A stretch of 41,326 bases of DNA. Origin: a virus (lineage: Duplodnaviria > Heunggongvirae > Uroviricota > Caudoviricetes). Shown here one piece after another: positions 1-41,326 of the stretch (position 1 is the stretch's first letter; every line of letters begins with the position of its first letter). The notes under the pieces were generated by a model. That model was given only the letters and a program-made list of their open reading frames with translations. It ran no database searches and was not told where the DNA came from. The stretch lies in the IMG/VR virus record IMGVR_UViG_2718218397_000001, one strand, 5' to 3'. Made by a program: the position numbers and the translations under genes.

Positions 1-1248
1 ATGGCACTGAATATTCCATTCAGAAATGCGTACTATCGTTTTGCATCCAGTTACTCATTTCTCTTTTTTATTTCCTGGTCGCTGTGGTGGTCGTTATACG
101 CTATTTGGCTGAAAGGACATCTAGGGTTGACAGGGACGGAATTAGGTACACTTTATTCGGTCAACCAGTTTACCAGCATTCTATTTATGATGTTCTACGG
201 CATCGTTCAGGATAAACTCGGTCTGAAGAAACCGCTCATCTGGTGTATGAGTTTCATCCTGGTCTTGACCGGACCGTTTATGATTTACGTTTATGAACCG
301 TTACTGCAAAGCAATTTTTCTGTAGGTCTAATTCTGGGGGCGCTATTTTTTGGCTTGGGGTATCTGGCGGGATGCGGTTTGCTTGATAGCTTCACCGAAA
401 AAATGGCGCGAAATTTTCATTTCGAATATGGAACAGCGCGCGCCTGGGGATCTTTTGGCTATGCTATTGGCGCGTTCTTTGCCGGCATATTTTTTAGTAT
501 CAGTCCCCATATCAACTTCTGGTTGGTCTCGCTATTTGGCGCTGTATTTATGATGATCAACATGCGTTTTAAAGATAAGGATCACCAGTGCGTAGCGGCA
601 GATGCGGGAGGGGTAAAAAAAGAGGATTTTATCGCAGTTTTCAAGGATCGAAACTTCTGGGTTTTCGTCATATTTATTGTGGGGACGTGGTCTTTCTATA
701 ACATTTTTGATCAACAACTTTTTCCTGTCTTTTATGCAGGTTTATTCGAATCACACGATGTAGGAACGCGCCTGTATGGTTATCTCAACTCATTCCAGGT
801 GGTACTCGAAGCGCTGTGCATGGCGATTATTCCTTTCTTTGTGAATCGGGTAGGGCCAAAAAATGCATTACTTATCGGAGTTGTGATTATGGCGTTGCGT
901 ATCCTTTCCTGCGCGCTGTTCGTTAACCCCTGGATTATTTCATTAGTGAAGTTGTTACATGCCATTGAGGTTCCACTTTGTGTCATATCCGTCTTCAAAT
1001 ACAGCGTGGCAAACTTTGATAAGCGCCTGTCGTCGACGATCTTTCTGATTGGTTTTCAAATTGCCAGTTCGCTTGGGATTGTGCTGCTTTCAACGCCGAC
1101 TGGGATACTCTTTGACCACGCAGGCTACCAGACAGTTTTCTTCGCAATTTCGGGTATTGTCTGCCTGATGTTGCTATTTGGCATTTTCTTCTTGAGTAAA
1201 AAACGCGAGCAAATAGTTATGGAAACGCCTGTACCTTCAGCAATATAG
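1..1248 (+). CDS. cscB: LacY-family oligosaccharide/H+ symporter, sucrose permease-like (host gene)
   Basis: 415-aa ORF, multi-pass hydrophobic profile, LacY-like motifs; I recall this sequence as CscB, and csc loci are known to sit next to argW. Confidence 0.75.
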   Translation: MALNIPFRNAYYRFASSYSFLFFISWSLWWSLYAIWLKGHLGLTGTELGTLYSVNQFTSILFMMFYGIVQDKLGLKKPLIWCMSFILVLTGPFMIYVYEPLLQSNFSVGLILGALFFGLGYLAGCGLLDSFTEKMARNFHFEYGTARAWGSFGYAIGAFFAGIFFSISPHINFWLVSLFGAVFMMINMRFKDKDHQCVAADAGGVKKEDFIAVFKDRNFWVFVIFIVGTWSFYNIFDQQLFPVFYAGLFESHDVGTRLYGYLNSFQVVLEALCMAIIPFFVNRVGPKNALLIGVVIMALRILSCALFVNPWIISLVKLLHAIEVPLCVISVFKYSVANFDKRLSSTIFLIGFQIASSLGIVLLSTPTGILFDHAGYQTVFFAISGIVCLMLLFGIFFLSKKREQIVMETPVPSAI

Positions 1249-9275: not shown

Positions 9276-10628
<1,353 letters not shown>

Positions 10629-13601: not shown

Positions 13602-14042
13602 ATGAAAAAACTAACCTTTGAAATTCGATCTCCAGCACATCAGCAAAACGCTATTCACGCAGTACAGCAAATCCTTCCAGACACAACCAAACCAATCGTA
13701 GTAACCATTCAGGAGCGCAACCGCAGCTTAGACCAGAATCGGAAGCTTTGGGCTTGCCTTGGTGACGTCTCTCGTCAGGTTGAATGGCATGGTCGCTGGC
13801 TGGATGCAGAAAGCTGGAAGTGTGTGTTTACCGCAGCATTAAAGCAGCAGGACGTTGTTCCTAACCTTGCCGGGAATGGCTTTGTGGTAATAGGCCAGTC
13901 AACCAGCAGGATGCGTGTAAGCGAATTTGCGGAGCTATTAGAGCTTATACAGGCATTCGGTACAGAGCGTGGCGTTAAGTGGTCAGACGAAGCGAGACTG
14001 GCTCTGGAGTGGAAAGCGAGATGGGGAGATCGGGCTGCATGA
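13602..14042 (+). CDS. ninB: NinB (Orf family recombination mediator)
   Basis: Product MKKLTFEIRSPAHQQNAIHAVQQILPD... matches lambda NinB from recall. Confidence 0.85.
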   Translation: MKKLTFEIRSPAHQQNAIHAVQQILPDTTKPIVVTIQERNRSLDQNRKLWACLGDVSRQVEWHGRWLDAESWKCVFTAALKQQDVVPNLAGNGFVVIGQSTSRMRVSEFAELLELIQAFGTERGVKWSDEARLALEWKARWGDRAA

Positions 14043-14911
14043 TAAATGTCGTTAGTTTCTCCGGTGGCAGGACGTCAGCATATTTGCTCTGGCTAATGGA
14101 GCAAAAGCGACTGGCAGGTAAAGACGTGCATTACGTTTTCATGGATACAGGTTGTGAACATCCAATGACATATCGGTTTGTCAGGGAAGTTGTGAAGTTC
14201 TGGGATATACCGCTCACCGTATTGCAGGTTGATATCAACCCGGAGCTTGGACAGCCAAATGGTTATACGGTATGGGAACCAAAGGATATTCAGACGCGAA
14301 TGCCTGTTCTGAAGCCATTTATCGATATGGTAAAGAAATATGGCACTCCATACGTCGGCGGCGCGTTCTGCACTGACAGATTAAAACTCGTTCCCTTCAC
14401 CAAATACTGTGATGACCATTTCGGGCGAGGGAATTACACCACGTGGATTGGCATCAGAGCTGATGAACCGAAGCGGCTAAAGCCAAAGCCTGGAATCAGA
14501 TATCTTGCTGAACTGTCAGACTTTGAGAAGGAAGATATCCTCGCATGGTGGAAGCAACAACCATTCGATTTGCAAATACCGGAACATCTCGGTAACTGCA
14601 TATTCTGCATTAAAAAATCAACGCAAAAAATCGGACTTGCCTGCAAAGATGAGGAGGGATTGCAGCGTGTTTTTAATGAGGTCATCACGGGATCCCATGT
14701 GCGTGACGGACATCGGGAAACGCCAAAGGAGATTATGTACCGAGGAAGAATGTCGCTGGACGGTATCGCGAAAATGTATTCAGAAAATGATTATCAAGCC
14801 CTGTATCAGGACATGGTACGAGCTAAAAGATTCGATACCGGCTCTTGTTCTGAGTCATGCGAAATATTTGGAGGGCAGCTTGATTTCGACTTCGGGAGGG
14901 AAGCTGCATGA
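14039..14911 (+). CDS. ninC: NinC-like protein (PAPS-reductase-like fold, 290 aa)
   Basis: 290 aa as lambda orf-290; SFSGGRTS P-loop-like motif; ATGA overlap with ninB. Confidence 0.65.
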
Positions 14912-16873: not shown

Positions 16874-17516
16874 TGGCAGCAAATACCGAAATATTTGGGT
16901 AGCTGGCGACCTGCACGGATGCTACACGAACCTGATGAACAAACTGGATACGATTGGATTCGACAACAAAAAAGACCTGCTCATCTCGGTTGGCGATTTG
17001 GTTGATCGCGGTACAGAGAACGTCGAATGTCTGGAATTAATCACATTCCCCTGGTTCAGAGCTGTACGTGGAAACCATGAGCAAATGATGATTGATGGCT
17101 TATCAGAGCGTGGAAACGTCAATCACTGGCTGTTTAATGGCGGTGGCTGGTTCTTTAATCTCGATTACGACAAAGAAATTCTGGCTAAAGCTCTTGCCCA
17201 TAAAGCAGATGAACTTCCGTTAATCATTGAACTGGTGAGTAAAGGTAAAAAATATGTCATCTGTCACGCCGATTATCCTTGTGACGAATACGAGTTTGGA
17301 AAGCCAGTTGATCATCAGCAGGTAATCTGGAACCGCGAACGAATCAGCAACTCACAAGACGGGATCGTGAAAGAAATCAAAGGCGCGGACACGTTCATCT
17401 TTGGTCATACGCCAGCAGTGAAACCACTCAAGTTTGCCAACCAGATGTATATCGATACCGGCGCAGTGTTCTGCGGAAACCTCACATTGATTCAGGTACA
17501 GGGAGAAGGCGCATGA
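16851..17516 (+). CDS. ninI: Ser/Thr protein phosphatase (lambda NinI-like, 221 aa)
   Basis: GDLHG, GDLVDRG, GNHE metallophosphatase motifs; internal start at 16851. Confidence 0.85.
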
Positions 17517-18136
17517 GACTCGAAAGCGTAGCTAAATTTCATTCGCCAAAAAGCCCGATGATGAGCGACTCACCACGGGCTACGGCTTCTGACTCTCTTT
17601 CCGGTACTGATGTGATGGCTGCTATGGGGATGGCGCAATCACAAGCCGGATTCGGAATGGCTGCATTCTGTGGTAAGCACGAACTCAGCCAGAATGACAA
17701 ACAAAAGGCTATCAACTATCTGATGCAATTTGCACACAAGGTATCGGGGAAATACCGTGGCGTTGCAAAGCTTGAAGGAAATACTAAGGCAAAGGTACTG
17801 CAAGTGCTCGCAACATTCGCTTATGCGGATTATTGCCGTAGTGCCGCGACGCCGGGTGCAAGATGCAGAGATTGCCACGGTACAGGCCGTGCGGTTGATA
17901 TAGCAAAAACAGAGCAGTGGGGGAGAGTTGTTGAGAAAGAGTGCGGAAGATGCAAAGGTGTCGGCTATTCAAGAATGCCAGCAAGCGCCGCATATCGCGC
18001 TGTAACGATGCTAATCCCAAACCTTACTCAACCCACCTGGTCACGCACTGTTAAGCCGCTGTATGACGCTCTGGTGGTGCAATGCCACAAAGAAGAGTCA
18101 ATCGCAGACAACATTTTGAATGCGGTCACACGTTAG
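17513..18136 (+). CDS. Q: Late antiterminator Q (lambda type)
   Basis: 207 aa, [26 protein letters not shown]... matches lambda Q from recall. Confidence 0.9.
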
Positions 18137-18178: not shown

Positions 18179-18208
18179 TTGACTTTTTGAATAAAGTTGG
18201 GTAAATTT
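18179..18208 (+). promoter_or_regulatory. Late promoter pR' (ttgact ... taaatt) with qut region
   Basis: Near-identity to recalled lambda pR' sequence. Confidence 0.7.
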
Positions 18209-18410: not shown

Positions 18411-18485
18411 GGGTCAGTCGTATAAAGGTCATTACGGAAGGCTGTTAACCTTCTTATCGTGGTTCGAGTCCACGCTGTCCCGCCA
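18411..18485 (+). tRNA. tRNA-like gene, anticodon GUU (Asn) by manual folding; two stem mismatches
   Basis: Cloverleaf folds by hand: anticodon loop CUGUUAA, T-arm cgtgg-TTCGAGT-ccacg, 3' CCA; U-U mismatch in acceptor stem. Confidence 0.5.
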
Positions 18486-18490
18486 AATAT

Positions 18491-18566
18491 GCTGGTTTAG
18501 CTCCAATGGTAGAGCAGTCGCCTTGTAAGCGAATGGGTAGCGGTTCAAGTCCGTTAACCAGCACCA
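18491..18566 (+). tRNA. tRNA-Thr (anticodon UGU) by manual folding
   Basis: Perfect 7-bp acceptor stem, D-arm gctc/gagc, anticodon loop CUUGUAA, T-loop TTCAAGT, encoded CCA. Confidence 0.6.
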
Positions 18567-19132: not shown

Positions 19133-19592
19133 TCAACGTAAGGCGTTCCTCGATATGCTGGCGTGGTCAGAGGGAACTGATAACGGACGTCAAAAAACCA
19201 GAAATCATGGTTATGACGTCATTGTTGGCGGAGAGCTATTCACTGATTACTCCGATCACCCTCGCAAACTTGTCACGCTAAACCCCAAACTCAAATCAAC
19301 AGCAGCCGGACGTTACCAGCTTCTTTCCCGTTGGTGGGATGCCTATCGCAATCAGCTTGGCCTGAAAGACTTCTCTCCGAAAAGCCAGGACGCTGTGGCG
19401 CTGCAACAGATTAAAGAACGTGGCGCTTTACCGATGATTGATCGCGGTGATATTCGTCAGGCTATCGACCGTTGCAGCAATATCTGGGCTTCACTGCCGG
19501 GGGCTGGTTATGGTCAGTTCGAGCATAAGGCTGACAACCTGATTGCAAAATTCAAAGAGGCTGGCGGAACGGTCAGAGAGATTGAGGTATGA
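19116..19592 (+). CDS. R: Endolysin R (lytic transglycosylase, lambda type)
   Basis: 158 aa matching recalled lambda R. Confidence 0.9.
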
Positions 19593-20056
19593 GCAGAGTA
19601 ACCGCGATTATCTCCGCTCTGGTTATCTGCATCATCGTTTGCCTGTCATGGGCTGTTAATCACTACCGTGATAACGCCATCGCCTACAAAGAACAGCGAG
19701 ATAAAAAAGTCAGTGAGCTGAAGCAGGCGACCGCCACCATTACTGACATGCAGCAACGCCAGCGTGCTGCTGATGCACTCGATGCTAAATACACGAAGGA
19801 GTTAGCTGATGCGAAAGCTGAAAATGATGCTCTTCGGCGCAAGCTTGATAATGGTGGCAGGGTGCTCGTCAAAGGAAAATGCCCTGTGCCATCCTCAGCC
19901 GAAACCTCCGGCGCCTCCGGCATGGGCAATGATGCCACCGTCGAACTCTCTCCAGTTGCTGGACGAAACGTTCTCGGTGTCCGGGACGGAATTATCCGCG
20001 ACCAAACAGCACTGAGAACGCTTCAGGAATACATCAGGACGCAATGCCTTCGATGA
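19589..20056 (+). CDS. Rz: Spanin inner-membrane subunit Rz
   Basis: 155 aa, N-terminal TM then coiled coil; position after R. Confidence 0.85.
19809..20015 (+). CDS. Rz1: Spanin outer-membrane lipoprotein Rz1 (embedded in Rz, +1 frame)
   Basis: Lipobox VAGC and Pro-rich mature region, fully embedded in Rz. Confidence 0.75.
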
Positions 20057-20230
20057 TAGCGATAATTTTACTCATCATCCTTCACATCTGGCTCTGTAGA
20101 CAGGGTGATGATCACTTCTGGAGTGAATCCAGATTAAACATCTCATTGCTGATGCTTGATATTGAGCATCTGGCGCGCGGTAAGGGGCTGCGTTGAGATA
20201 AGAGCCAGTCATTACAAATACCAGGATTTA

Positions 20231-20255
20231 GCCTCGCATTTGCGGGGCTTTTTTA
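20231..20255 (+). terminator. Putative intrinsic terminator downstream of Rz
   Basis: gcctcgca..tgcggggc hairpin followed by ttttttac. Confidence 0.4.
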
Positions 20256-20402
20256 CATCTGCAGTAAACCGCGCATCGCAGCGCGTAACAATCCCGAGTC
20301 TTTCAGAAAGCTGAGCCTGAGAATTGCCGTATATGGTGGCGACCATCTCGGGGACGGCTTTTCTGTGCGAACAGGCTCATCTTTCTAAAAGGTAAAGACG
20401 CA

Positions 20403-20945
20403 ATGAACTACCCAACCGTTGTTAACGATATAGATTTCAGAGACCTAATTTTTGTAGCAAACAACGATCCGGTTACAGATTCTTTTATGGTGGCAAAAGC
20501 ATTTGGAAAGCTGCCGAAGAACGTGGTTCGTGACATTGAACGAACCATAGAAGCTTGCCCTCCTGAGTTTGATACAAAGCTCAACTTTGAGCTTTGCTAT
20601 AAAAACAATGAGTTACAGAATGGTAAGCCGCAAAAATTCTACCGTCTCCGCAAGGATGGGTTGATGCTTTTGGTTATGTCCTACACCAAAAAAGAAGCAA
20701 TGCGTATCAAAATTGCTTACATCAACGCATTCAACTGGATGTACGCCATGCTTCAGGTTGGTCATCGTCAATTTGAAGAAGAGAGAAATGCCGTAATGCT
20801 GGAGTACATGAAAGAGAAGGATGTTGCCAGCATGTCAGGCCGCCTGCTTAATCGCTGGGGAAAAATTAAGAAGCCTCAGCTGCTGGCGAGAATTGAACGC
20901 CTTGAACAGCACGGGCAAACCGTAATCCCCGGACTCACCAATTAA
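20403..20945 (+). CDS. rha: Rha-family phage regulatory protein
   Basis: N-terminal TDSFMVAKAFGKLPKNVVRDIERTIE resembles the Phage_pRha domain. Confidence 0.65.
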   Translation: MNYPTVVNDIDFRDLIFVANNDPVTDSFMVAKAFGKLPKNVVRDIERTIEACPPEFDTKLNFELCYKNNELQNGKPQKFYRLRKDGLMLLVMSYTKKEAMRIKIAYINAFNWMYAMLQVGHRQFEEERNAVMLEYMKEKDVASMSGRLLNRWGKIKKPQLLARIERLEQHGQTVIPGLTN

Positions 20946-21103
20946 CGGCAGTACAGCGAAACAACCCAAGCCAGTAAGTGGGGAAATAACACTGGCAGCC
21001 ACTGAAAGATGAACCTCCAGCCTTATGGCAAAAAAGATTCTTTGTGGTGGCGGACTGATGGAAAGACATCCTAATCAAGCAACCACTCCACAGGGTCATA
21101 ATT

Positions 21104-21484
21104 ATGAACGACCAGCAAATCGAAAAAGAAATCGTTGAGAAAGGCAAAACCGCTCCGCGAGTTACCCCGCAGCACATCGAAGACGTGATTAAAAGCGAGC
21201 ATTACTTTACTGCTTATGATGGACGAAATGGTGCCATTTCCAGCAACGAATATTGTGGCAGGGAAAAACCAGAAGAAGGCGATCGTGATTTATCACCATT
21301 GAAGTTGCTCACTTTCTGCGTACTGGTGCTGAAGAATGGCTTCACCGTCACCGGAGAGAGTGCCTGTGCAAGCCCTGAAAACTTTGATGCAGAAATTGGT
21401 CGGAAGATTGCCAGGCAGAATGCTGTAAACAAAATCTGGATGCTTGAAGGTTACTTGCTGAAGCAGAAGCTAAGCGAACAGTAG
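21104..21484 (+). CDS. Hypothetical phage protein (126 aa; possibly Gp49-like family)
   Basis: ORF between rha and terminase; family assignment from weak recall only. Confidence 0.4.
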   Translation: MNDQQIEKEIVEKGKTAPRVTPQHIEDVIKSEHYFTAYDGRNGAISSNEYCGREKPEEGDRDLSPLKLLTFCVLVLKNGFTVTGESACASPENFDAEIGRKIARQNAVNKIWMLEGYLLKQKLSEQ

Positions 21485-21587
21485 TTATTACAAAAGCCAT
21501 TCCCTACAGAGTGGCTTTGATAATGGCTTATACCCTACACGGGATAACTTAACTGATATCCCTTTTAACGGATAAACGGAGCCAACA

Positions 21588-21830
21588 ATGGCAGAGATTA
21601 TTCCCATGACTGAAGAACAGAAATTCCAGTTAGAGATTTACAAACTGGTCATGAACCAGAACGCAGCCGCAGAAGAAGCATTTCAGTTCATTGGCACTGA
21701 CGAACTGAAGCTTGAGCTATTCAAAATTCACTTTCAGTCAGGCGGCGCTAATTCAGATATCACGACCCGCACTATCGAAGCGGTGCGTAAATCGAAGGAA
21801 GCGTTAGACCTGTTCACTACCGGAGCATAA
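21588..21830 (+). CDS. Hypothetical phage protein (80 aa)
   Basis: ORF with upstream SD (aaacggag), just upstream of the terminase genes. Confidence 0.4.
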   Translation: MAEIIPMTEEQKFQLEIYKLVMNQNAAAEEAFQFIGTDELKLELFKIHFQSGGANSDITTRTIEAVRKSKEALDLFTTGA

Positions 21831-21909
21831 ACATGGCAACTCAAGGTTTCGACAACCCATCCAAATTCCGCGATGAATGGGATAAGCAAGCAGAACGGAA
21901 ATAATCAAT

Positions 21910-22335
21910 ATGGCGACTGAGAAAAAGAACGTCGGTCGCCCTTCGGATTACCTGCCGGAGGTGGCTGATGATATCTGTGCGCTGCTTGCCTCCGGGGAAA
22001 GTCTGGTTAAGGTTTGCAAGCGCCCCGGCATGCCAGCAAAGGCTACTGTATTTCGCTGGCTGTCAGAGCATGACGAATTTAGAGACAAGTACGCGAAGGC
22101 AACTGAGGCACGAGCTGATTCTATTTTCGAAGAGATATTCGAAATTGCTGACAATGCGATTCCAGATGCTGCTGAGGTGGCAAAGGCAAGACTTCGCGTT
22201 GATACCCGCAAATGGGCGCTGGCCCGAATGAATCCACGTAAGTATGGCGACAAGGTAACTAATGAGCTTGTCGGCAAAGACGGCGGCGCAATCCAGATTG
22301 AAACATCACCGATGAGCACTCTATTCGGAAAATGA
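21910..22335 (+). CDS. Terminase small subunit (Sf6 gp1-like)
   Basis: 141 aa; GRPSDYLPEVADDICALLASGESLVKVCKRPGMP matches recalled Sf6 small terminase. Confidence 0.85.
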   Translation: MATEKKNVGRPSDYLPEVADDICALLASGESLVKVCKRPGMPAKATVFRWLSEHDEFRDKYAKATEARADSIFEEIFEIADNAIPDAAEVAKARLRVDTRKWALARMNPRKYGDKVTNELVGKDGGAIQIETSPMSTLFGK

Positions 22336-36368: not shown

Positions 36369-36489
36369 CCTTGATGCCTCACCAGTTGGGTGGAATGGCA
36401 TCGTAACTTACTGGATAAATACTCAATAGTACCATTTCGGTATGCAATCACATCATGGTTGCATCATATCATTCGTCTGGAGCAATGAA

Positions 36490-38691
36490 ATGTCAGATAT
36501 CACCGCAAATGTTGTGGTAAGCATGCCTTCGCAACTCTTCACTATGGCTCGTTCTTTTAAAGCCGTAGCCAATGGCAAAATTTATATCGGTAAAATTGAC
36601 ACGGACCCGGTAAATCCTGAAAACCAGATTCAGGTTTATGTGGAGAACGAAGATGGTTCTCACGTCCCTGTTTCGCAACCAATCATCATTAATGCTGCTG
36701 GTTATCCGGTATATAACGGACAGATTGCCAAATTCGTAACTGTGCAAGGCCATTCTATGGCTGTTTACGATGCGTATGGCGTACAGCAATTCTATTTCCC
36801 TAATGTGCTGAAGTATGACCCTGACAGATTACAACAGCGACTTATTAGTCACTTGGATGGAAATGGAGATGCTTTAGTTGCTACTAAGCAACCTATTGCA
36901 GGGGCGAAAGATAAAACAGTACATGATTGGATTGCTGAGCATGTTTCTATTAAAGACATGTATGGTGTTATTGGTGATGGTGTTAACGATGATGCGCCTT
37001 ATATAATTACTGCACTATCCAACCTATTGATATCCTGTAATCCTATTGTATTTGTCCCTGGAACATATCTCATAAATTCAGACATTACATTTGATATCCC
37101 TGTGACATTTATTCGTGGAGCTGTATTAAAAGTAAGAAATGGTGCCGTAGTTAAATTTAATGCAGAAATTGATGCTGGAAGGTATGAGATATTTGACACA
37201 GAAGATGACTTTTTCAATAATTACTTAGAAACTCCATCTGTTAAGATACCAAATGGACCTGTTCGTATTGAGTGGTTTGGAGCTAAATCAGTAAGTAGTT
37301 ATGCAGATATAGCGTCAGCACATGATTGTTCAGATGCTTTTTTAAAGGCATGGCATGCAACATGCGGAGAATTTAATGTGGAAATAACTCCTGGTGCTCT
37401 TTATCAGTCAGAGTTTTATCATTCATATGTATCTTTATCATCAGGAAAATATAGAATGGATAAAAATCTAAAACTATGGCATAGGGTTATTTCGCCATCT
37501 ATCATCAGATATAATAAAAATGGAGGGGGGATAATTGGTGATGGAATGGGGTTGTCAATTCTTGTTTTTACAGATCCTAAGTATGAAGGAAATGCTTATG
37601 TTGAACTCAGTGATATGAGCGGAGAGATGCATGAGTTTCGTGATTTTAAAGTGACATTCTATGATCCAAATGCTACAGGAGATGATATATATTTTGGTAG
37701 AGCTGGGGCTTGCATTCTGTTCTCTAGCGCAGATAGTATAGTTACAAAGAATATATGGGCTGCTGGAGCAAAATATCTTCGCACTGATATTGATGGGGTT
37801 CGTAGGGGTGGTGTGGGTATACAATTTGAGTCATTGGTAGACCATTTTTTCGAGAATCTATTAGTAGAGCACTGTATAAACGGTATTGCATTTAGTTCCT
37901 GTGTTTCAAATGGTTTTAACATTAAGGGATTCTCTAATAGAGTATCTGATCTGGCATTTGGTAATTATATACCAGCATGGCCAGATCTAATCACGCAAAA
38001 TGGCGTAAATCTTGTATCTGTTTCTGGCATGGAGAGCAAGGCATGTCCTGCAACTCCTATTTATTTTGGGACGGTTGATAACAGGGTTAACATAACTAAT
38101 GTTAATATTAAAGGAAATGCAGAATCATCATCTTCAATAGTAACATTTAGAGCCATTGCGTTTAACCATGCTGGGGCCGGTGCAGTAGGATTGATTCAGG
38201 GCAATGTTATGAATGTGAACTACGGTCTTATTGATGACGGTGGAACAGCTTTTGCTGGTAAATCTGGTTCACCATTAAGACTAACTTTTAATGTTTATAA
38301 TGTTGCAGGGAATTCCGCAACAGAAACAGCTGTTGCTGTATTCAAAAACCCTTTGTCTAATGTCGATATTGATTTAGGTGTGAATGGCGCATTGTTTCCT
38401 GCGCTTATTAGCTCATGTAATTACGCCATAGCCAGAATTAATATTGTTGGTATCACTGGGTCAAACTCAGCTCCCTACGTGGCATTCGGATGCAATGCAG
38501 GAATATTAATAATTAGAAGTTTGAAAGCATCAGGAAGTTCAGCGGCATACCTTGGCTATGCAGGAGGATCGTCTCAAGTCATTCTTCCATCTGCAATGTC
38601 AGCTGATATCACACTGGTTAGGAAAGGTTCAGGCTCTTCTGCTGATATAAGGCAGGAATCATCTTCACCTTACAACAATATTCAGTCTTAA
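36490..38691 (+). CDS. Tailspike: P22-type N-terminal head-binding domain fused to a different receptor-binding domain
   Basis: [43 protein letters not shown] matches P22 gp9 N-terminus; remainder Gly/Asn/Ser-rich and AT-rich. Confidence 0.85.
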
Positions 38692-38762: not shown

Positions 38763-39755
38763 TCAATTGCTTATTTTATTGTATATTTTTATTGTTGTAA
38801 AATATGCGATAAAGAAACATAAGAAAGTGTATAATATAGTGTCTATAGAGTTATGCAGATACACCTTCAAACCAATCATTTTGAAAGATGAATAAATAAA
38901 TGTTTTAAGCATTTGCTCTGTTCCGCAAAGCACTAGAGTTGATTGCCCTATTAATATAACTTGCTTTATCTTTATGCGCTTTGCAATGGTAATGTTTGGG
39001 ATAAATAGCGCTGCCGTTATAATAAACGATGCAAGTATTTTTAAATATTCGTTTTTAATTCCATTATATATTGAGGCTGCCCCATAAAAATAAACATAAA
39101 TAAATAACGCCATCGACAATGAGCAAATTATGTAAGAGGTTATTTTTGATGTTAGGTTGCCATTATATTCTTGTGGCTCTTTAATATAACAGGAAAGGTA
39201 TGCGCCCAAAGCATAATAAGCAATATACCTTAAAGCGCTGTCAATATTAAAAAACAACTTTGGCTGAACACCTATTTTCATAATTGAAGAAACAAAGAAT
39301 ATCGCAATGCATGTTATGAAAATAAGATGCCTATTCTTTATTATAAGCTGTATAAATGAGTGCATCATTATAATAACAAACAAACATGGAAGAAACCAAA
39401 GTGATGCAGCAAATATGTGGTTTCTGATTCCTGGTATTATCTGGCTGGCAAGCTCTCTTACCTGATGGAAGTCATAATTATAGTATAGAGAAAAGAAAAT
39501 AAGGGAAATAAGCGAGAATGTAAAATACGGTATCAGTATCCTTTTTGAGGATTTAATCGCTATAATATTAAAATCATATAGAGAAGAGCATTTTTTAAAA
39601 AAAATCCCGGAAATAAAAAAGAATAACGGGACGTGAAATGAAAACACAAAAGGATATAACTGCTTTGCATTATCGCCAAAGTGTCCTAAGTAAATCCAAA
39701 ATATGGCCACTGCCTTTAATGAATCAATCCATTCTAAACGATGGTTGGCATTCAT
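38763..39755 (-). CDS. oac: O-antigen acetyltransferase (acyltransferase-3 family, Sf6 Oac-like)
   Basis: 330 aa, many TM segments, N-terminal RLEWIDSLKAVAIFWIYLGHF motif; very AT-rich; next to tailspike and int. Confidence 0.75.
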   Translation of the reverse strand: MNANHRLEWIDSLKAVAIFWIYLGHFGDNAKQLYPFVFSFHVPLFFFISGIFFKKCSSLYDFNIIAIKSSKRILIPYFTFSLISLIFFSLYYNYDFHQVRELASQIIPGIRNHIFAASLWFLPCLFVIIMMHSFIQLIIKNRHLIFITCIAIFFVSSIMKIGVQPKLFFNIDSALRYIAYYALGAYLSCYIKEPQEYNGNLTSKITSYIICSLSMALFIYVYFYGAASIYNGIKNEYLKILASFIITAALFIPNITIAKRIKIKQVILIGQSTLVLCGTEQMLKTFIYSSFKMIGLKVYLHNSIDTILYTFLCFFIAYFTTIKIYNKISN

Positions 39756-40168: not shown

Positions 40169-41326
40169 TCAGGAGAACTTTTCATCAATCCAGTCCGCCC
40201 ACCACTGCATCATTTCTCTGCGCTTATCGAGATACTGAGCATGGTTGTAAATACCGCGCACAGATCCGCCGTTGGCATGTGCAAGTTGCACTTCAATGGC
40301 GTCGGCAGGCCATTCGTGCTCGTTCATAATCGTGCTGAATTCATGCCTGAATCCGTGACCGCTTTCCAGACCCTCATAGCCGATTTGTTTGATCACAAGT
40401 AGCACCGCGTTCTCGCAGATTGGCTTTTTCTTATCGTTGCGCCCGGCAAAAACAAACTCTGATACTGGTTTAGTGATGGAGCTTAGCGTAGTGAGAAGTT
40501 CAACCACCTGGTCCGACATCGGGACCACATGAATTTTGCGGCCCTTCATCACACTGGCGTCGATGGTGATAATCCTGTTTTCAAAATCGACGTTCTTCCA
40601 TAGCATAGAACGAAGCTCTTTCGTTCTTAGGGCTGTGTAGCGTAAAACTTTGGTCGCAATGAGCGATACGATACTTCCTGAAAATGTTGCCAGTGCTTTG
40701 TTGAATGCAGGGATCTGGTCTGCAGGTAAAAACGGGAAGTTCTTCTTGCGGTATCCCTTCATGGCGTCTGCAAGGTCAGGTGCCGGGTTATATTTAGCCC
40801 TTCCGGTGACAATAGCGTAACGGAAAACCTCGCCGCATCTTCTGCGTGCTTTGTTGGCTCGCTCCATTGCACCGCGATCTTCAAATCTGCGGATTACTTC
40901 CAGCAGTTGCATCGGCTCAATATCCTGAATTTCAAGACCACCGATGATGGGTAAAATGTCGTCATCAAACATTTTGGCAAGTTCAGTTGCATAGCCTACT
41001 GACCAGACTTGCTTCTTGTGCTCGTACCATTCCTTGTAAATGGCACTAAAGGAATTGTTGTTAGACGAAGCCTTTTTCGCTTTTACCGGATCGATGCCAA
41101 CCGAGATGTCTTTCCTCGCGGTCCATGCTTTATCTCTTGCCTCCTGCAAAGTCATAAGCGGATATTTTCCTACGGTCAGTATTTTTTCCTTACCGTCAAT
41201 CTTGTAGCGAAGCTGCCATACCTTTTTCCCGGATACAGGGACATAAAGGTACAGGCCATTACCATCGAGAAGGCGGTATGGTTTTTCTTTCGGCTTTGCT
41301 GCTTCAATCTGCTTAACGGTGAGCAT
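40169..41326 (-). CDS. intS: Tyrosine integrase, P4 type (IntS-like); start at window edge
   Basis: 385-aa ORF I recognise as E. coli CPS-53 IntS-like (MLTVKQIEAAKPKEKPYRLLDGNGLYLYV...). Confidence 0.85.
   Translation of the reverse strand: MLTVKQIEAAKPKEKPYRLLDGNGLYLYVPVSGKKVWQLRYKIDGKEKILTVGKYPLMTLQEARDKAWTARKDISVGIDPVKAKKASSNNNSFSAIYKEWYEHKKQVWSVGYATELAKMFDDDILPIIGGLEIQDIEPMQLLEVIRRFEDRGAMERANKARRRCGEVFRYAIVTGRAKYNPAPDLADAMKGYRKKNFPFLPADQIPAFNKALATFSGSIVSLIATKVLRYTALRTKELRSMLWKNVDFENRIITIDASVMKGRKIHVVPMSDQVVELLTTLSSITKPVSEFVFAGRNDKKKPICENAVLLVIKQIGYEGLESGHGFRHEFSTIMNEHEWPADAIEVQLAHANGGSVRGIYNHAQYLDKRREMMQWWADWIDEKFS

What the first reader, a model, noticed from the sequence alone, without database searches (positions are those of the whole stretch)
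20403..21830. Rha regulator and two small unknown proteins between the lysis cassette and the terminase
After Rz/Rz1 and a probable terminator there is a Rha-family regulatory protein, then 126-aa and 80-aa ORFs of unknown function, just before the small terminase. In lambda this interval holds bor and other morons. Rha proteins are implicated in lysis-lysogeny interference and the flanking small ORFs are uncharacterised.
Basis: inference. Interest (0 to 1): 0.35.

Follow-up and report, generated by a model that had tools for sequence, protein, structure and literature searches.

The report
Accessory slot with anti-CBASS sponge gene
Between the lysis and DNA-packaging genes of this P22/Sf6-like E. 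coli prophage lie a Rha-type regulator, a catalogued Acb4-family gene predicted to soak up bacterial CBASS immune signals, and a conserved small gene of unknown role, all already present and named in public phage genomes.

Summary
Rha (20403-20945), a 126-aa ORF (21104-21484) and an 80-aa ORF (21588-21830) lie between Rz/Rz1 plus a terminator-like hairpin and an Sf6-type small terminase.

The 126-aa ORF is no longer uncharacterised. It belongs to Pfam PF13876, the Acb4 (anti-CBASS 4) family of cyclic-dinucleotide sponges. It differs at 2 of 126 residues from Sf6 gp66, which is listed in the published Acb4 family table. Its predicted fold matches only the SPO1 Acb4 crystal structure.

The 80-aa ORF is DUF2560 (P22 orf80, HK620 hkbM, Sf6 gp67). 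It is a narrow, strongly constrained family that always sits just upstream of the small terminase. No function could be found.

A survey of 72 related loci shows a combinatorial accessory slot upstream of DUF2560. It holds Rha, KilA-N, GIY-YIG or Tad2-like genes, with or without Acb4, or an Acb2/Tad1-like gene, or nothing. The strict moron reading is not supported, because no own promoter was detected.

One small extra: a covariation-supported RNA hairpin (21484-21527) marks the left edge of the DUF2560 module.

Verdict: real, mostly already known, modest interest.

The parts
17513..18136 (+). Q-type late antiterminator (context: defines the late operon that contains the finding)
   Evidence: PF03589 Antiterm, 1.3e-57
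18179..18207 (+). Late-promoter-like site (TTGACT-17-TAAATT) just downstream of Q
   Evidence: Consensus scan, 9 of 12 matches; position is as in lambdoid PR'. Inferred, not shown.
19589..20056 (+). Rz i-spanin, with Rz1 o-spanin embedded at 19809-20015; end of the lysis cassette
   Evidence: ORF list; Rz1 matches PF06085 at 3.8e-21; homologous to Rz of CUS-3, Sf6 and HK620
20044..20196 (+). 50-aa ORF with a hydrophobic N-terminus, homologue of Sf6 gp65 and epsilon34 gp67; function unknown
   Evidence: phrog_11822 at 5.5e-38; 94-98% identical in CUS-3, Sf6, Huey, HK620 and epsilon34
20230..20255 (+). Intrinsic-terminator-like hairpin (8 bp, 6 GC) plus a T6 run; left mosaic junction of the Rha cassette
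   Evidence: the equivalent site is annotated as a terminator in epsilon34; homology to Sf6 and Huey breaks at 20218/20253
20403..20945 (+). Rha-family (Bro-network) regulator, 180 aa, pI 9.3: N-terminal Phage_pRha domain and C-terminal ORF11CD3 domain
   Evidence: PF09669 1.6e-21, PF10549 4.7e-26, TIGR02681 3.8e-24, phrog_518 1.5e-81; 100% identical to CUS-3 ECRS218_0024 and 56% to P22 Rha; pI
20946..21070 (+). Conserved non-coding spacer shared with CUS-3, Sf6, Huey and phiKp_30
   Evidence: Pairwise blastn junctions
21071..21483 (+). 413-bp Acb4 cassette, present or absent as a unit relative to CUS-3; the CDS is 21104-21484 (126 aa, PF13876 = Acb4 anti-CBASS sponge family)
   Evidence: CUS-3 is contiguous across this gap (subject 2546 to 2548). 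PF13876 at 6.2e-35. 2 of 126 residues differ from Sf6 gp66 (Q716B1), listed in Chang et al. Table S3. Clade profile to PDB 9E4W gives E 7.6e-5. AF2 model pLDDT 84.8. Foldseek top 13 hits are all 9E4W, probability 1.00. 45-46% identical over the aligned positions to the N4 and Bas69 Acb4 proteins.
21484..21527 (+). Conserved RNA hairpin (5-8 bp lower stem, small internal loop, 10 bp upper stem). It starts in the Acb4 stop codon and marks the left edge of the DUF2560 module.
   Evidence: MFE -20.6 kcal/mol, z -4.9. Across 19 haplotypes, 15 pairs are 98.9% paired, against 93.1% in shuffles (0 of 500 reach the observed value) and 30-47% when partners are slid. Five pairs change on both sides. G-U pairs place the structure on the + strand.
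21588..21830 (+). DUF2560 protein, 80 aa, acidic (pI 4.7), four helices; equals P22 orf80, HK620 hkbM and Sf6 gp67. Conserved anchor gene just upstream of the small terminase.
   Evidence: PF10834 at 1.1e-43; 100% identical protein in 6 reference phages; AF2 pLDDT 85.7; pI; no informative fold or sequence match
21910..22335 (+). Sf6-type small terminase (right boundary of the interval)
   Evidence: PF20901 at 1.3e-44, phrog_1482 at 1.4e-66

Best explanation
The interval is the accessory-gene slot of the late operon of a P22/Sf6-like E. coli prophage. It is built from three independently exchangeable cassettes.

(1) Rha is a basic, two-domain Bro-network DNA-binding regulator of the phi80/P22 rha type. 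Its biochemical role is not known. The only documented phenotype of the family is inhibition of lambdoid phage growth in IHF-deficient hosts.

(2) The 126-aa protein is an Acb4-family sponge. By homology it should form a homotetramer whose inter-subunit pockets sequester cyclic dinucleotides made by host CBASS cyclases (3'3'-cGAMP and, in homologues from phages of Gram-negative hosts, also 3'3'-c-di-AMP). The CBASS effector would then not be activated and the phage would complete its cycle. The same activity should make the phage vulnerable to sponge-sensing systems such as PanDA.

(3) DUF2560 is a strongly constrained 9-kDa acidic four-helix protein that accompanies the small terminase gene in nearly all enterobacterial P22-like phages. 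The identical protein is paired with different terminase types. A P22 deletion named orf25-orf80 is viable. I therefore infer that DUF2560 acts on a conserved host or phage component late in infection, and is not a specific terminase partner.

What is shown: gene identities, family and fold membership, cassette boundaries, distribution, and purifying selection. What is inferred: ligand binding, CBASS inhibition, late-only expression by Q-mediated readthrough of the 20230 terminator, and any role for Rha or DUF2560.

My confidence differs by part: about 0.95 for the family assignments and the slot architecture, about 0.75 for Acb4 acting as a CBASS-signal sponge, and 0.35 or less for any specific role of Rha or DUF2560.
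For: Acb4:
- PF13876 at E 6.2e-35, 120 bits against a cut-off of 27.
- Chang et al. equate PF13876 with the Acb4 family. They report that all eight homologues they tested bind 3'3'-cGAMP and that only those from phages of Gram-negative hosts bind 3'3'-cAA.
- Sf6 gp66 is in their Table S3 and differs from the window protein at 2 of 126 residues.
- Against PDB 9E4W, phmmer gives E 0.007 and the clade profile gives 7.6e-5.
- The AF2 model has pLDDT 84.8. The top 13 Foldseek hits in the PDB are all 9E4W (probability 1.00, target TM 0.56-0.71). The next hit has E 0.16.
- It is 45-46% identical over the aligned positions (about 41% by tblastn) to N4 and Bas69 Acb4. N4 Acb4 binds c-di-AMP with Kd 111 nM, and both proteins trigger PanDA.
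- The hydrophobic ligand contacts of SPO1 Acb4 are kept: F48, F62, I66 and L89 correspond to F80, F94, I98 and L123.

Slot:
- Cassette junctions fall at 20218-20253, 20935/6, 21070/1, 21483/4 and about 21837.
- In 72 IMG/VR loci, Acb4 is present in 16, in combination with Rha, KilA-N, GIY-YIG, Tad2-like or no slot-1 gene. The window-type Rha is present in 25.
- The same slot holds a Tad2-like gene in phage Huey (PF11195, 1.7e-24) and an Acb2/Tad1-hairpin protein in L029 (PF24729, 3.5e-18).
- The P22 pid moron lies in the same place.

Late operon:
- Q antiterminator, a promoter-like site, and an unbroken run of + strand genes.

DUF2560:
- 171 phage records carry it.
- Divergent members still sit directly upstream of the small terminase in phages with other terminase and portal types.
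- 4-12 synonymous against 0-1 non-synonymous differences per pair.
- The same protein allele is found next to Sf6-type, CUS-3-type and P22-type small terminases.
- P22 carrying the deletion named orf25-orf80 gives viable phage.
Against: - No binding or defence assay exists for this clade of Acb4.
- The polar, base-specific contacts of SPO1 Acb4 are not conserved. K36, E49, Y57, T70 and K81 correspond to L68, T81, A89, I102 and M113, so ligand specificity cannot be read off.
- Relative to N4 Acb4, the protein has a conserved 17-residue N-terminal extension and a low-confidence insert (residues about 47-60) of unknown significance.
- Tetramer formation could not be modelled with these tools.
- Late expression seems an odd time for a sponge. 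It is inferred only from a simple promoter scan.
- No IHF consensus lies near rha.
- For DUF2560 nothing beyond synteny and constraint is available. It is unclear whether the P22 orf25-orf80 deletion removes orf80 itself.
- The 80 IMG/VR loci were selected as the best DUF2560 matches, so the frequencies are not population estimates.
Confidence: 0.75

Rival explanations
1. One reading: the three ORFs are morons or lysogenic-conversion genes, like lambda bor. They would be expressed from the prophage and would interfere with lysis-lysogeny or superinfection.
For: - The slot is variable and dispensable.
- P22 carries the autonomously transcribed pid moron at the same position.
- A terminator precedes Rha.
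- GC content of the three genes (0.44-0.46) is a little below the flanking lysis and terminase genes (0.51).
- RefSeq names P22 Rha an anti-repressor.
Against: - No sigma-70-like promoter was found upstream of Rha or Acb4. The only + strand site in the interval lies inside the Acb4 gene.
- All three genes are co-oriented with the late operon, whereas pid is antisense to it.
- No U-tract terminator follows Acb4.
- DUF2560 is near-universal in P22-like phages rather than sporadic.
- Acb4 acts for an infecting phage against CBASS, not for the lysogen.
Confidence: 0.12
2. The 126-aa protein has the Acb4 fold but a different main job in enterobacteria. It could sequester another nucleotide signal (for example type III CRISPR cyclic oligoadenylates or a Thoeris signal), or act as an anti-CRISPR as annotated in phage Huey. 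The conserved N-terminal extension would provide the new function.
For: - Base-specific ligand residues differ from SPO1 Acb4.
- The N-terminal motif (E7, I10, K13, G14, R19, T21) is invariant within the clade and absent from N4 Acb4.
- Chang et al. note extensions in some homologues that may add functions.
- The Huey record labels the 99% identical protein as an anti-CRISPR protein.
Against: - All eight diverse homologues tested by Chang et al. bound 3'3'-cGAMP.
- N4 Acb4 shares the GFT(V/I)TG-SAC core and binds c-di-AMP at 111 nM.
- The Huey label also sits on a Tad2-like protein, so it looks like an automatic annotation transfer and not a tested result.
Confidence: 0.15
3. All three are core late genes needed for lysis or DNA packaging in Sf6-like phages.
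For: - They lie within the late operon between lysis and terminase genes.
- DUF2560 is conserved, strongly constrained, and separated from the small terminase start by only 2-13 nt in CUS-3 and metagenomic relatives.
Against: - Rha and Acb4 are absent from many otherwise similar phages. The slot can shrink to 308 bp.
- Only 8 phage records carry a protein at least 95% identical to this Acb4.
- The P22 deletion named orf25-orf80 is viable.
- The identical DUF2560 allele is found next to unrelated small terminase types.
Confidence: 0.05

Closest known systems
Acb4 (anti-CBASS 4) of Bacillus phage SPO1, PDB 9E4W; Pfam PF13876
   Same: Same Pfam family and same predicted fold (three antiparallel strands with flanking helices). 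The ENF-x-EIG-R core and the hydrophobic and stacking ligand contacts F48, F62, I66 and L89 are conserved. Both are phage-encoded small proteins.
   Different: Only about 25% identical. The window protein is 126 aa against 96 aa, with an N-terminal extension and an internal insert. The guanine-specific and phosphate contacts (K36, E49, Y57, T70, K81) are replaced. SPO1 Acb4 does not bind c-di-AMP, whereas homologues from phages of Gram-negative hosts do.
Acb4 of coliphages N4 and Bas69 (Schitoviridae)
   Same: 45-46% identical over the aligned positions, about 41% by tblastn. Shares the GFT(V/I)TG-SAC...W-LEGYLLKQ motifs and the E. coli host. In N4 the gene is followed directly by a Tad2-like gene, and a Tad2-like gene occupies the neighbouring slot in the P22-like phage Huey.
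   Different: The N4 and Bas69 proteins lack the N-terminal 17 residues and carry a C-terminal Cys-rich tail. Their c-di-AMP binding (111 nM) and PanDA triggering are measured; nothing is measured for the window protein. The genomic context differs: a virulent phage against the late operon of a temperate phage.
Shigella phage Sf6 gp66 / gp67
   Same: gp66 is 124 of 126 residues identical and gp67 is 80 of 80 identical. The order is the same, upstream of the same type of small terminase.
   Different: Sf6 has no Rha. About 107 bp of Sf6 sequence replaces window 20219-20935. Sf6 also has an extra small gene, gp68 (hkbN-like), after gp67.
rha of phages phi80 and P22 (orf201); CUS-3 ECRS218_0024
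   Same: Same Pfam/TIGRFAM family and the same position between the lysis and packaging genes. 100% identical to the CUS-3 protein and 56% to P22 Rha.
   Different: The IHF-dependent growth-inhibition phenotype is known only for phi80 and P22 (PMC4936722). No IHF consensus site lies near this copy.
Lambda bor-type morons and the P22 pid locus
   Same: Dispensable insertions in the same part of the late region. pid lies between orf25 and orf80, exactly where Acb4 lies here.
   Different: pid is antisense to the late operon and has its own promoter and terminator. Rha and Acb4 here are sense-oriented, and no own promoter was detected.

Membership tests
Acb4 / PF13876 viral sponge family | Significant match to the PF13876 profile | tested here: met
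   E 6.2e-35, 120 bits against a cut-off of 27, covering residues 20-123. The near-identical Sf6 gp66 is listed in the published family table.
Acb4 / PF13876 viral sponge family | Acb4 protomer fold (beta1-beta3 core flanked by N-terminal helices and long C-terminal helices) | tested here: met
   The AF2 model (pLDDT 84.8) has strands 29-36, 70-76 and 81-86 and a C-terminal helix 96-125. The top 13 Foldseek PDB hits are all 9E4W, probability 1.00, target TM 0.56-0.71.
Acb4 / PF13876 viral sponge family | Homotetrameric pinwheel assembly with ligand pockets at subunit interfaces | not testable with these tools
   Only monomer prediction is available. Chang et al. report confident AF3 tetramers for all eight homologues they modelled.
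Acb4 / PF13876 viral sponge family | Conservation of the ligand-contacting residues of SPO1 Acb4 | tested here: inconclusive
   Four contacts are kept: F48/F80, F62/F94, I66/I98 and L89/L123. N63 becomes D95, a backbone contact. K36, E49, V56, Y57, T70 and K81 are replaced. N4 Acb4, a proven binder, shows the same replacements at K36 and E49.
Acb4 / PF13876 viral sponge family | High-affinity binding of CBASS cyclic dinucleotides and rescue of phage from CBASS | not testable with these tools
   Requires EMSA or ITC and plaque assays.
Rha family (PF09669 / TIGR02681) | Phage_pRha domain above the curated threshold | tested here: met
   PF09669 at 77.1 bits (cut-off 29.9); TIGR02681 at 84.8 bits (cut-off 45.95).
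Rha family (PF09669 / TIGR02681) | Late-operon position between lysis and packaging genes, as for phi80 and P22 rha | tested here: met
   Same position as P22 rha and the CUS-3 homologue.
Rha family (PF09669 / TIGR02681) | IHF-regulated; inhibits phage growth in IHF-deficient hosts | tested here: inconclusive
   No WATCARNNNNTTR site lies within 20197-20402. The window holds 5 sites in all, none nearby, and that is the chance level. The phenotype itself needs experiments.
DUF2560 (PF10834) | Full-length match to PF10834 | tested here: met
   E 1.1e-43, positions 1-72 of 72 in the profile. 98.8-100% identical to P22 orf80, HK620 hkbM and Sf6 gp67.
Moron (Hendrix-type autonomous insertion) | Present or absent as a discrete unit between genes that are adjacent in related phages | tested here: met
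   The 413-bp Acb4 cassette is absent from CUS-3 with a clean junction. The Rha cassette is absent from Sf6.
Moron (Hendrix-type autonomous insertion) | Own promoter and own terminator, allowing expression from the repressed prophage | tested here: not met
   No promoter-like site lies upstream of Rha or Acb4, and no U-tract terminator follows either gene. The hairpin after Acb4 belongs to the DUF2560 module and is present in phages without Acb4. The scan is simple, so weak promoters are not excluded.
Sequestin (PF21825) sponge family, considered for the 80-aa ORF | Profile similarity to the PF21825 domain | tested here: not met
   hhalign of the DUF2560 alignment against a PF21825-Acb4 fusion protein gives probability 0.3%. 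The Pfam scan gives no PF21825 hit.

The most novel reading that the evidence does not exclude
DUF2560 and the covarying RNA hairpin just upstream of it form a previously undescribed conserved module at the head of the packaging genes of P22-like phages. The hairpin (lower stem, small internal loop, 10-bp upper stem, + strand only) would be an RNase III-type processing or stability signal. It would uncouple the swappable counter-defence cassettes from the DUF2560-terminase message. DUF2560 would be a host-directed late protein, for example one that shields packaging from a host defence, and not a terminase subunit.
Probability: 0.2. Interest if true: 0.5.

Novelty: already known. Interest (0 to 1): 0.25.

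Why it matters
The practical value is annotation. The 'Gp49 family protein' or 'hypothetical protein' in this slot of Sf6/CUS-3-like prophages should be read as a predicted anti-CBASS sponge.

The interval between the lysis and terminase genes of P22-like phages is a place to look for further counter-defence genes. In different phages it holds Acb4, Tad2-like and Acb2/Tad1-like genes.

Sponge carriage also predicts sensitivity to sponge-sensing systems such as PanDA and Panoptes. This matters for choosing or engineering temperate phages of E. coli, Shigella and Salmonella.

DUF2560 remains one of the few near-universal P22-like genes without a function.

Tried and rejected
Attempts to give DUF2560 a function all failed:
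- phmmer and a family profile against PDB sequences gave a best E of 0.06-0.14.
- Foldseek against BFVD returned only uncharacterised relatives.
- An exhaustive HMMER profile search of 1.84 billion representatives found 74 hits. All were short proteins of the same family or repeat-protein noise.
- A relationship to the Sequestin sponge family was rejected.
- The apparent 'fusions' P0219 and P0236 look like frameshifted or chimeric gene calls.
- The 72-aa DUF2560 variants are +1 frameshift pseudogenes, not C-terminal mosaics.

Other negative results:
- Rfam gives nothing above noise in 19900-22000.
- No IHF consensus lies near rha.
- P22 has no Acb4 remnant in its orf25-orf80 gap.
- Literature searches for DUF2560 and orf80 gave no functional study.
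- Searches on Rha found only the phi80/P22 IHF work cited second-hand.
Full report
**What the window is.** The window is an integrated P22/Sf6-like (Lederbergvirus-type) prophage of E. coli.
- A host oligosaccharide MFS transporter gene lies at 1-1248.
- The region from about 1.3 to 2.6 kb matches E. coli genomes where torI and DUF4752 genes are annotated. This is taken from the annotation under the matches and was not checked on the window ORFs.
- A C2-type repressor lies at 9677-10309.
- A Q-type antiterminator lies at 17513-18136, followed by tRNA-Asn and tRNA-Thr.
- Then come the lysis genes, terminase, portal, head and tail genes, a tailspike (36442-38691), an acyltransferase-family gene (38763-39755) and IntS at 40169-41326.
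- All genes from the holin (18809) to about 35.5 kb are on the + strand. They lie downstream of Q and of a promoter-like site at 18179-18207. The finding therefore sits inside the late operon.

**Observation.**
- Rz is at 19589-20056, with Rz1 embedded at 19809-20015 (PF06085, 3.8e-21).
- A terminator-like hairpin at 20230-20249 is followed by T6. The equivalent site in epsilon34 is annotated as a Rho-independent terminator.
- Rha is at 20403-20945 (PF09669 plus PF10549; TIGR02681).
- The 126-aa ORF is at 21104-21484 and the 80-aa ORF at 21588-21830.
- An Sf6-type small terminase is at 21910-22335.
It is the homologue of Sf6 gp65.

**The 126-aa ORF is an Acb4-family protein.**
- It matches Pfam PF13876 ('N4 Gp49 / Sf6 gene 66') at E 6.2e-35.
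- Chang et al. (bioRxiv 10.1101/2024.12.30.630793) showed that SPO1 Acb4 founds this family. It is a tetrameric sponge that sequesters 3'3'-cGAMP and blocks CBASS. All eight diverse homologues they purified bind 3'3'-cGAMP. None binds c-di-GMP. Only those from phages of Gram-negative hosts also bind c-di-AMP.
- Their Table S3 lists Sf6 gp66 (Q716B1), which differs from the window protein at two residues, G3D and I20V.
- Direct sequence search against the PDB finds only 9E4W, at E 0.007. A profile of the enterobacterial clade improves this to 7.6e-5.
- An AlphaFold2 model (pLDDT 84.8) returns 9E4W chains as its top 13 Foldseek hits (probability 1.00, target TM 0.56-0.71). A gap to E 0.16 follows.
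- The protein is 45-46% identical over the aligned positions (about 41% by tblastn) to the Acb4 proteins of coliphages N4 and Bas69. N4 Acb4 binds c-di-AMP with Kd 111 nM. Both proteins trigger the sponge-sensing PanDA system (bioRxiv 10.64898/2026.08.10.743972).

**Ligand contacts.** I mapped the SPO1 ligand contacts listed onto the alignments.
- The stacking and hydrophobic contacts are kept: F48/F80, F62/F94, I66/I98 and L89/L123.
- The polar, base- or phosphate-specific contacts are replaced: K36/L68, E49/T81, Y57/A89, T70/I102 and K81/M113.
- N4 Acb4 shows the same loss of K36 and E49.
- Family and fold membership are therefore established. Ligand range is inferred to resemble the homologues from phages of Gram-negative hosts (cGAMP plus c-di-AMP). 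Tetramer formation and binding are untested.
- Relative to N4, the clade has a 17-residue N-terminal extension with invariant residues and a low-confidence insert. Their significance is unknown.

**Rha.**
- The 180-aa basic protein (pI 9.3) has a Phage_pRha domain (residues 25-113) and an ORF11CD3 domain (residues 125-176). Both belong to the domain-shuffling 'Bro network' (PMC10111431).
- It is 100% identical to CUS-3 ECRS218_0024, about 63% identical to Stx-phage homologues and 56% to P22 Rha (orf201).
- The only documented biology is that phi80 and P22 rha are late-operon genes whose product blocks phage growth in IHF-deficient hosts (as summarised in PMC4936722).
- No IHF consensus lies near this copy.
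- I treat it as a DNA-binding regulator or antirepressor-like protein of unknown target, with low confidence in any specific mechanism.

**DUF2560.**
- The 80-aa protein is 100% identical in CUS-3, Sf6, Huey, HK620, epsilon34 and phiKp_30, and differs by one residue in P22 orf80. The DNA differs at 4-12 synonymous sites per pair, which indicates strong purifying selection.
- The family is small. It has 93 clusters at 90% identity in 5.8 billion proteins and 74 representatives in an exhaustive profile search of 1.84 billion.
- It occurs in 171 phage records, against 182 records with a P22-type portal.
- Divergent members are still found directly upstream of the small terminase in phages with Terminase_2/P22-portal modules and with a Phage_portal_3 module.
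- The identical allele is found next to Sf6-type, CUS-3-type and P22-type small terminases. This argues against a specific physical partnership with the small terminase.
- A P22 deletion named orf25-orf80 gives viable, lysogenising phage (PMC11016777). It is unclear whether orf80 itself is removed.
- The function is unknown. My best guess is a non-essential late protein acting on a conserved host or phage component.

**The interval as an accessory slot.** Pairwise comparison gives clean cassette junctions.
- Against CUS-3, the window has an extra 413 bp (21071-21483), which is exactly the Acb4 gene with its ribosome-binding region.
- Against Sf6 and Huey, window 20219-20935 (terminator plus Rha) replaces other sequence.

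I surveyed 72 IMG/VR loci that contain both Rz and DUF2560.
- The first sub-slot holds window-type Rha (25 loci), P22-type Rha (3), KilA-N (14), GIY-YIG nuclease (3), Tad2-like (4), or none of these (23).
- Acb4 is present in 16 loci and combines freely with every type.
- The Rz-to-DUF2560 distance can be as short as 308 bp.
- Other occupants include a second Rha type, another KilA-N, DUF551, and a protein with the Acb2/Tad1 hairpin domain (PF24729, 3.5e-18).
- Phage Huey carries a Tad2-like gene (PF11195, 1.7e-24) followed by Acb4.
- In N4, Acb4 is immediately followed by a Tad2-like gene.
- In P22 the pid moron sits where Acb4 sits here (PMC8835761).

These loci were selected as the best DUF2560 matches, so the counts show combinatorics and not population frequencies. 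The whole Rha-Acb4-DUF2560 arrangement is found in 12 of 5,426 complete E. coli genomes. RefSeq already labels it 'Rha family transcriptional regulator | Gp49 family protein | DUF2560 family protein'.

**Moron or late gene?**
- The simple promoter scan finds no site upstream of Rha or Acb4.
- The genes are sense-oriented in the late operon.
- Their GC content (0.44-0.46) is only slightly below that of the neighbours (0.51).
- I infer expression by Q-modified polymerase reading through the 20230 terminator. This needs transcript mapping.

**An extra feature.** A hairpin at 21484-21527 begins in the Acb4 stop codon and lies about 60 nt upstream of the DUF2560 start.
- Its folding energy is -20.6 kcal/mol, z -4.9.
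- It is present whether or not Acb4 precedes it.
- Across 19 distinct haplotypes, its 15 pairs are 98.9% paired. Column shuffles give 93.1% (0 of 500 reach the observed value) and slid registers give 30-47%. Five pairs change on both sides.
- G-U pairs place the structure on the + strand, that is in the late mRNA.
- It marks the left edge of the conserved DUF2560 module.
- Its shape recalls phage RNase III processing sites. This comparison comes from my own knowledge and is untested. The haplotypes are related, so the covariation reflects few independent events.

**Verdict.** It is outdated for the 126-aa ORF, which is a catalogued Acb4 sponge homologue. It is wrong in spirit for the 80-aa ORF, which is a conserved late gene and not a sporadic moron. 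Nothing here falls outside known families. The small additions are the description of this slot as a mixing site for signal-sponge genes in P22-like phages and the covarying hairpin upstream of DUF2560.

Noticed in passing
window 21484-21527 (+): Covariation-supported RNA hairpin that starts in the Acb4 stop codon, about 60 nt upstream of DUF2560. It is present in P22-like phages with or without Acb4 and marks the left edge of the conserved DUF2560 module. It may be a processing or stability signal.
   Followed up: yes
window 21543-21570 (+): A second small hairpin, GGGATA-N10-TATCCC, followed by TTTT, just upstream of the DUF2560 ribosome-binding site. The terminator scan missed it because the loop is longer than 8 nt. 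Read off the sequence by eye and not folded.
   Followed up: no
window 20044-20196 (+): Conserved 50-aa ORF overlapping the end of Rz, with a hydrophobic N-terminal segment. It is the homologue of Sf6 gp65 and epsilon34 gp67 (phrog_11822).
   Followed up: partly
L004 (phage Huey) 1758-2258; L006 (phage N4) 14004-14486; L029 1923-2207: Other signal-sponge genes occupy the same slot or neighbourhood. Huey has a Tad2-like gene (PF11195) in the position of Rha. N4 has a Tad2-like gene directly after its Acb4. One IMG/VR P22-like phage has an Acb2/Tad1-hairpin protein (PF24729) in the slot.
   Followed up: partly
L004 (phage Huey) 1758-2258 and 2493-2873: The Huey GenBank record labels both the Tad2-like and the Acb4 homologue as 'anti-CRISPR protein'. 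This is probably an automatic annotation transfer and not a tested function.
   Followed up: partly
L006 (N4, NC_008720) 13633-14004 versus 14004-14486: In the N4 RefSeq record the Acb4 homologue carries locus tag gp48, and locus tag gp49 is the Tad2-like (DUF2829) protein. The Pfam family name 'N4 Gp49' therefore does not match the current locus tags.
   Followed up: no
phage records HK97, HK544, HK75, HK446, mEp234 and others: HK97-like lambdoid phages keep only the first 27-28 codons of DUF2560 (92-96% identical) near their right end. This looks like a remnant of recombination with P22-like phages.
   Followed up: no
proteins P0059, P0072, P0086; window alternative frame 21712-21807: Several database DUF2560 'variants' of 72 aa end in the +1 frame of the gene (...SKRCVNRRKR). 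They are frameshifted copies, not a second isoform.
   Followed up: partly
window 1-1248 and 40169-41326: The window starts at the ATG of a host oligosaccharide MFS transporter gene and ends at the start codon of intS. The integrase and the torI-like excisionase region lie at opposite ends of the prophage, as I recall for KplE1.
   Followed up: partly
window 18411-18566 (+): tRNA-Asn(GTT) and tRNA-Thr(TGT) lie between the Q antiterminator and the holin, as annotated for Sf6. N4-like Bas69 also carries tRNA-Asn and tRNA-Thr about 1 kb upstream of its acb4, which is probably coincidence.
   Followed up: no
window 38763-39755 (-): An Acyl_transf_3 family acyltransferase lies between the tailspike and the integrase. 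It is possibly an O-antigen or capsule acetylase for lysogenic conversion.
   Followed up: no
window 20334-20402 versus L002 (CUS-3) 1810-1878: CUS-3 annotates its identical Rha with a start 69 nt further upstream (203 aa). In the window the ORF listing gives 20403 as the first start codon after a stop, so it begins at 20403 (180 aa).
   Followed up: no
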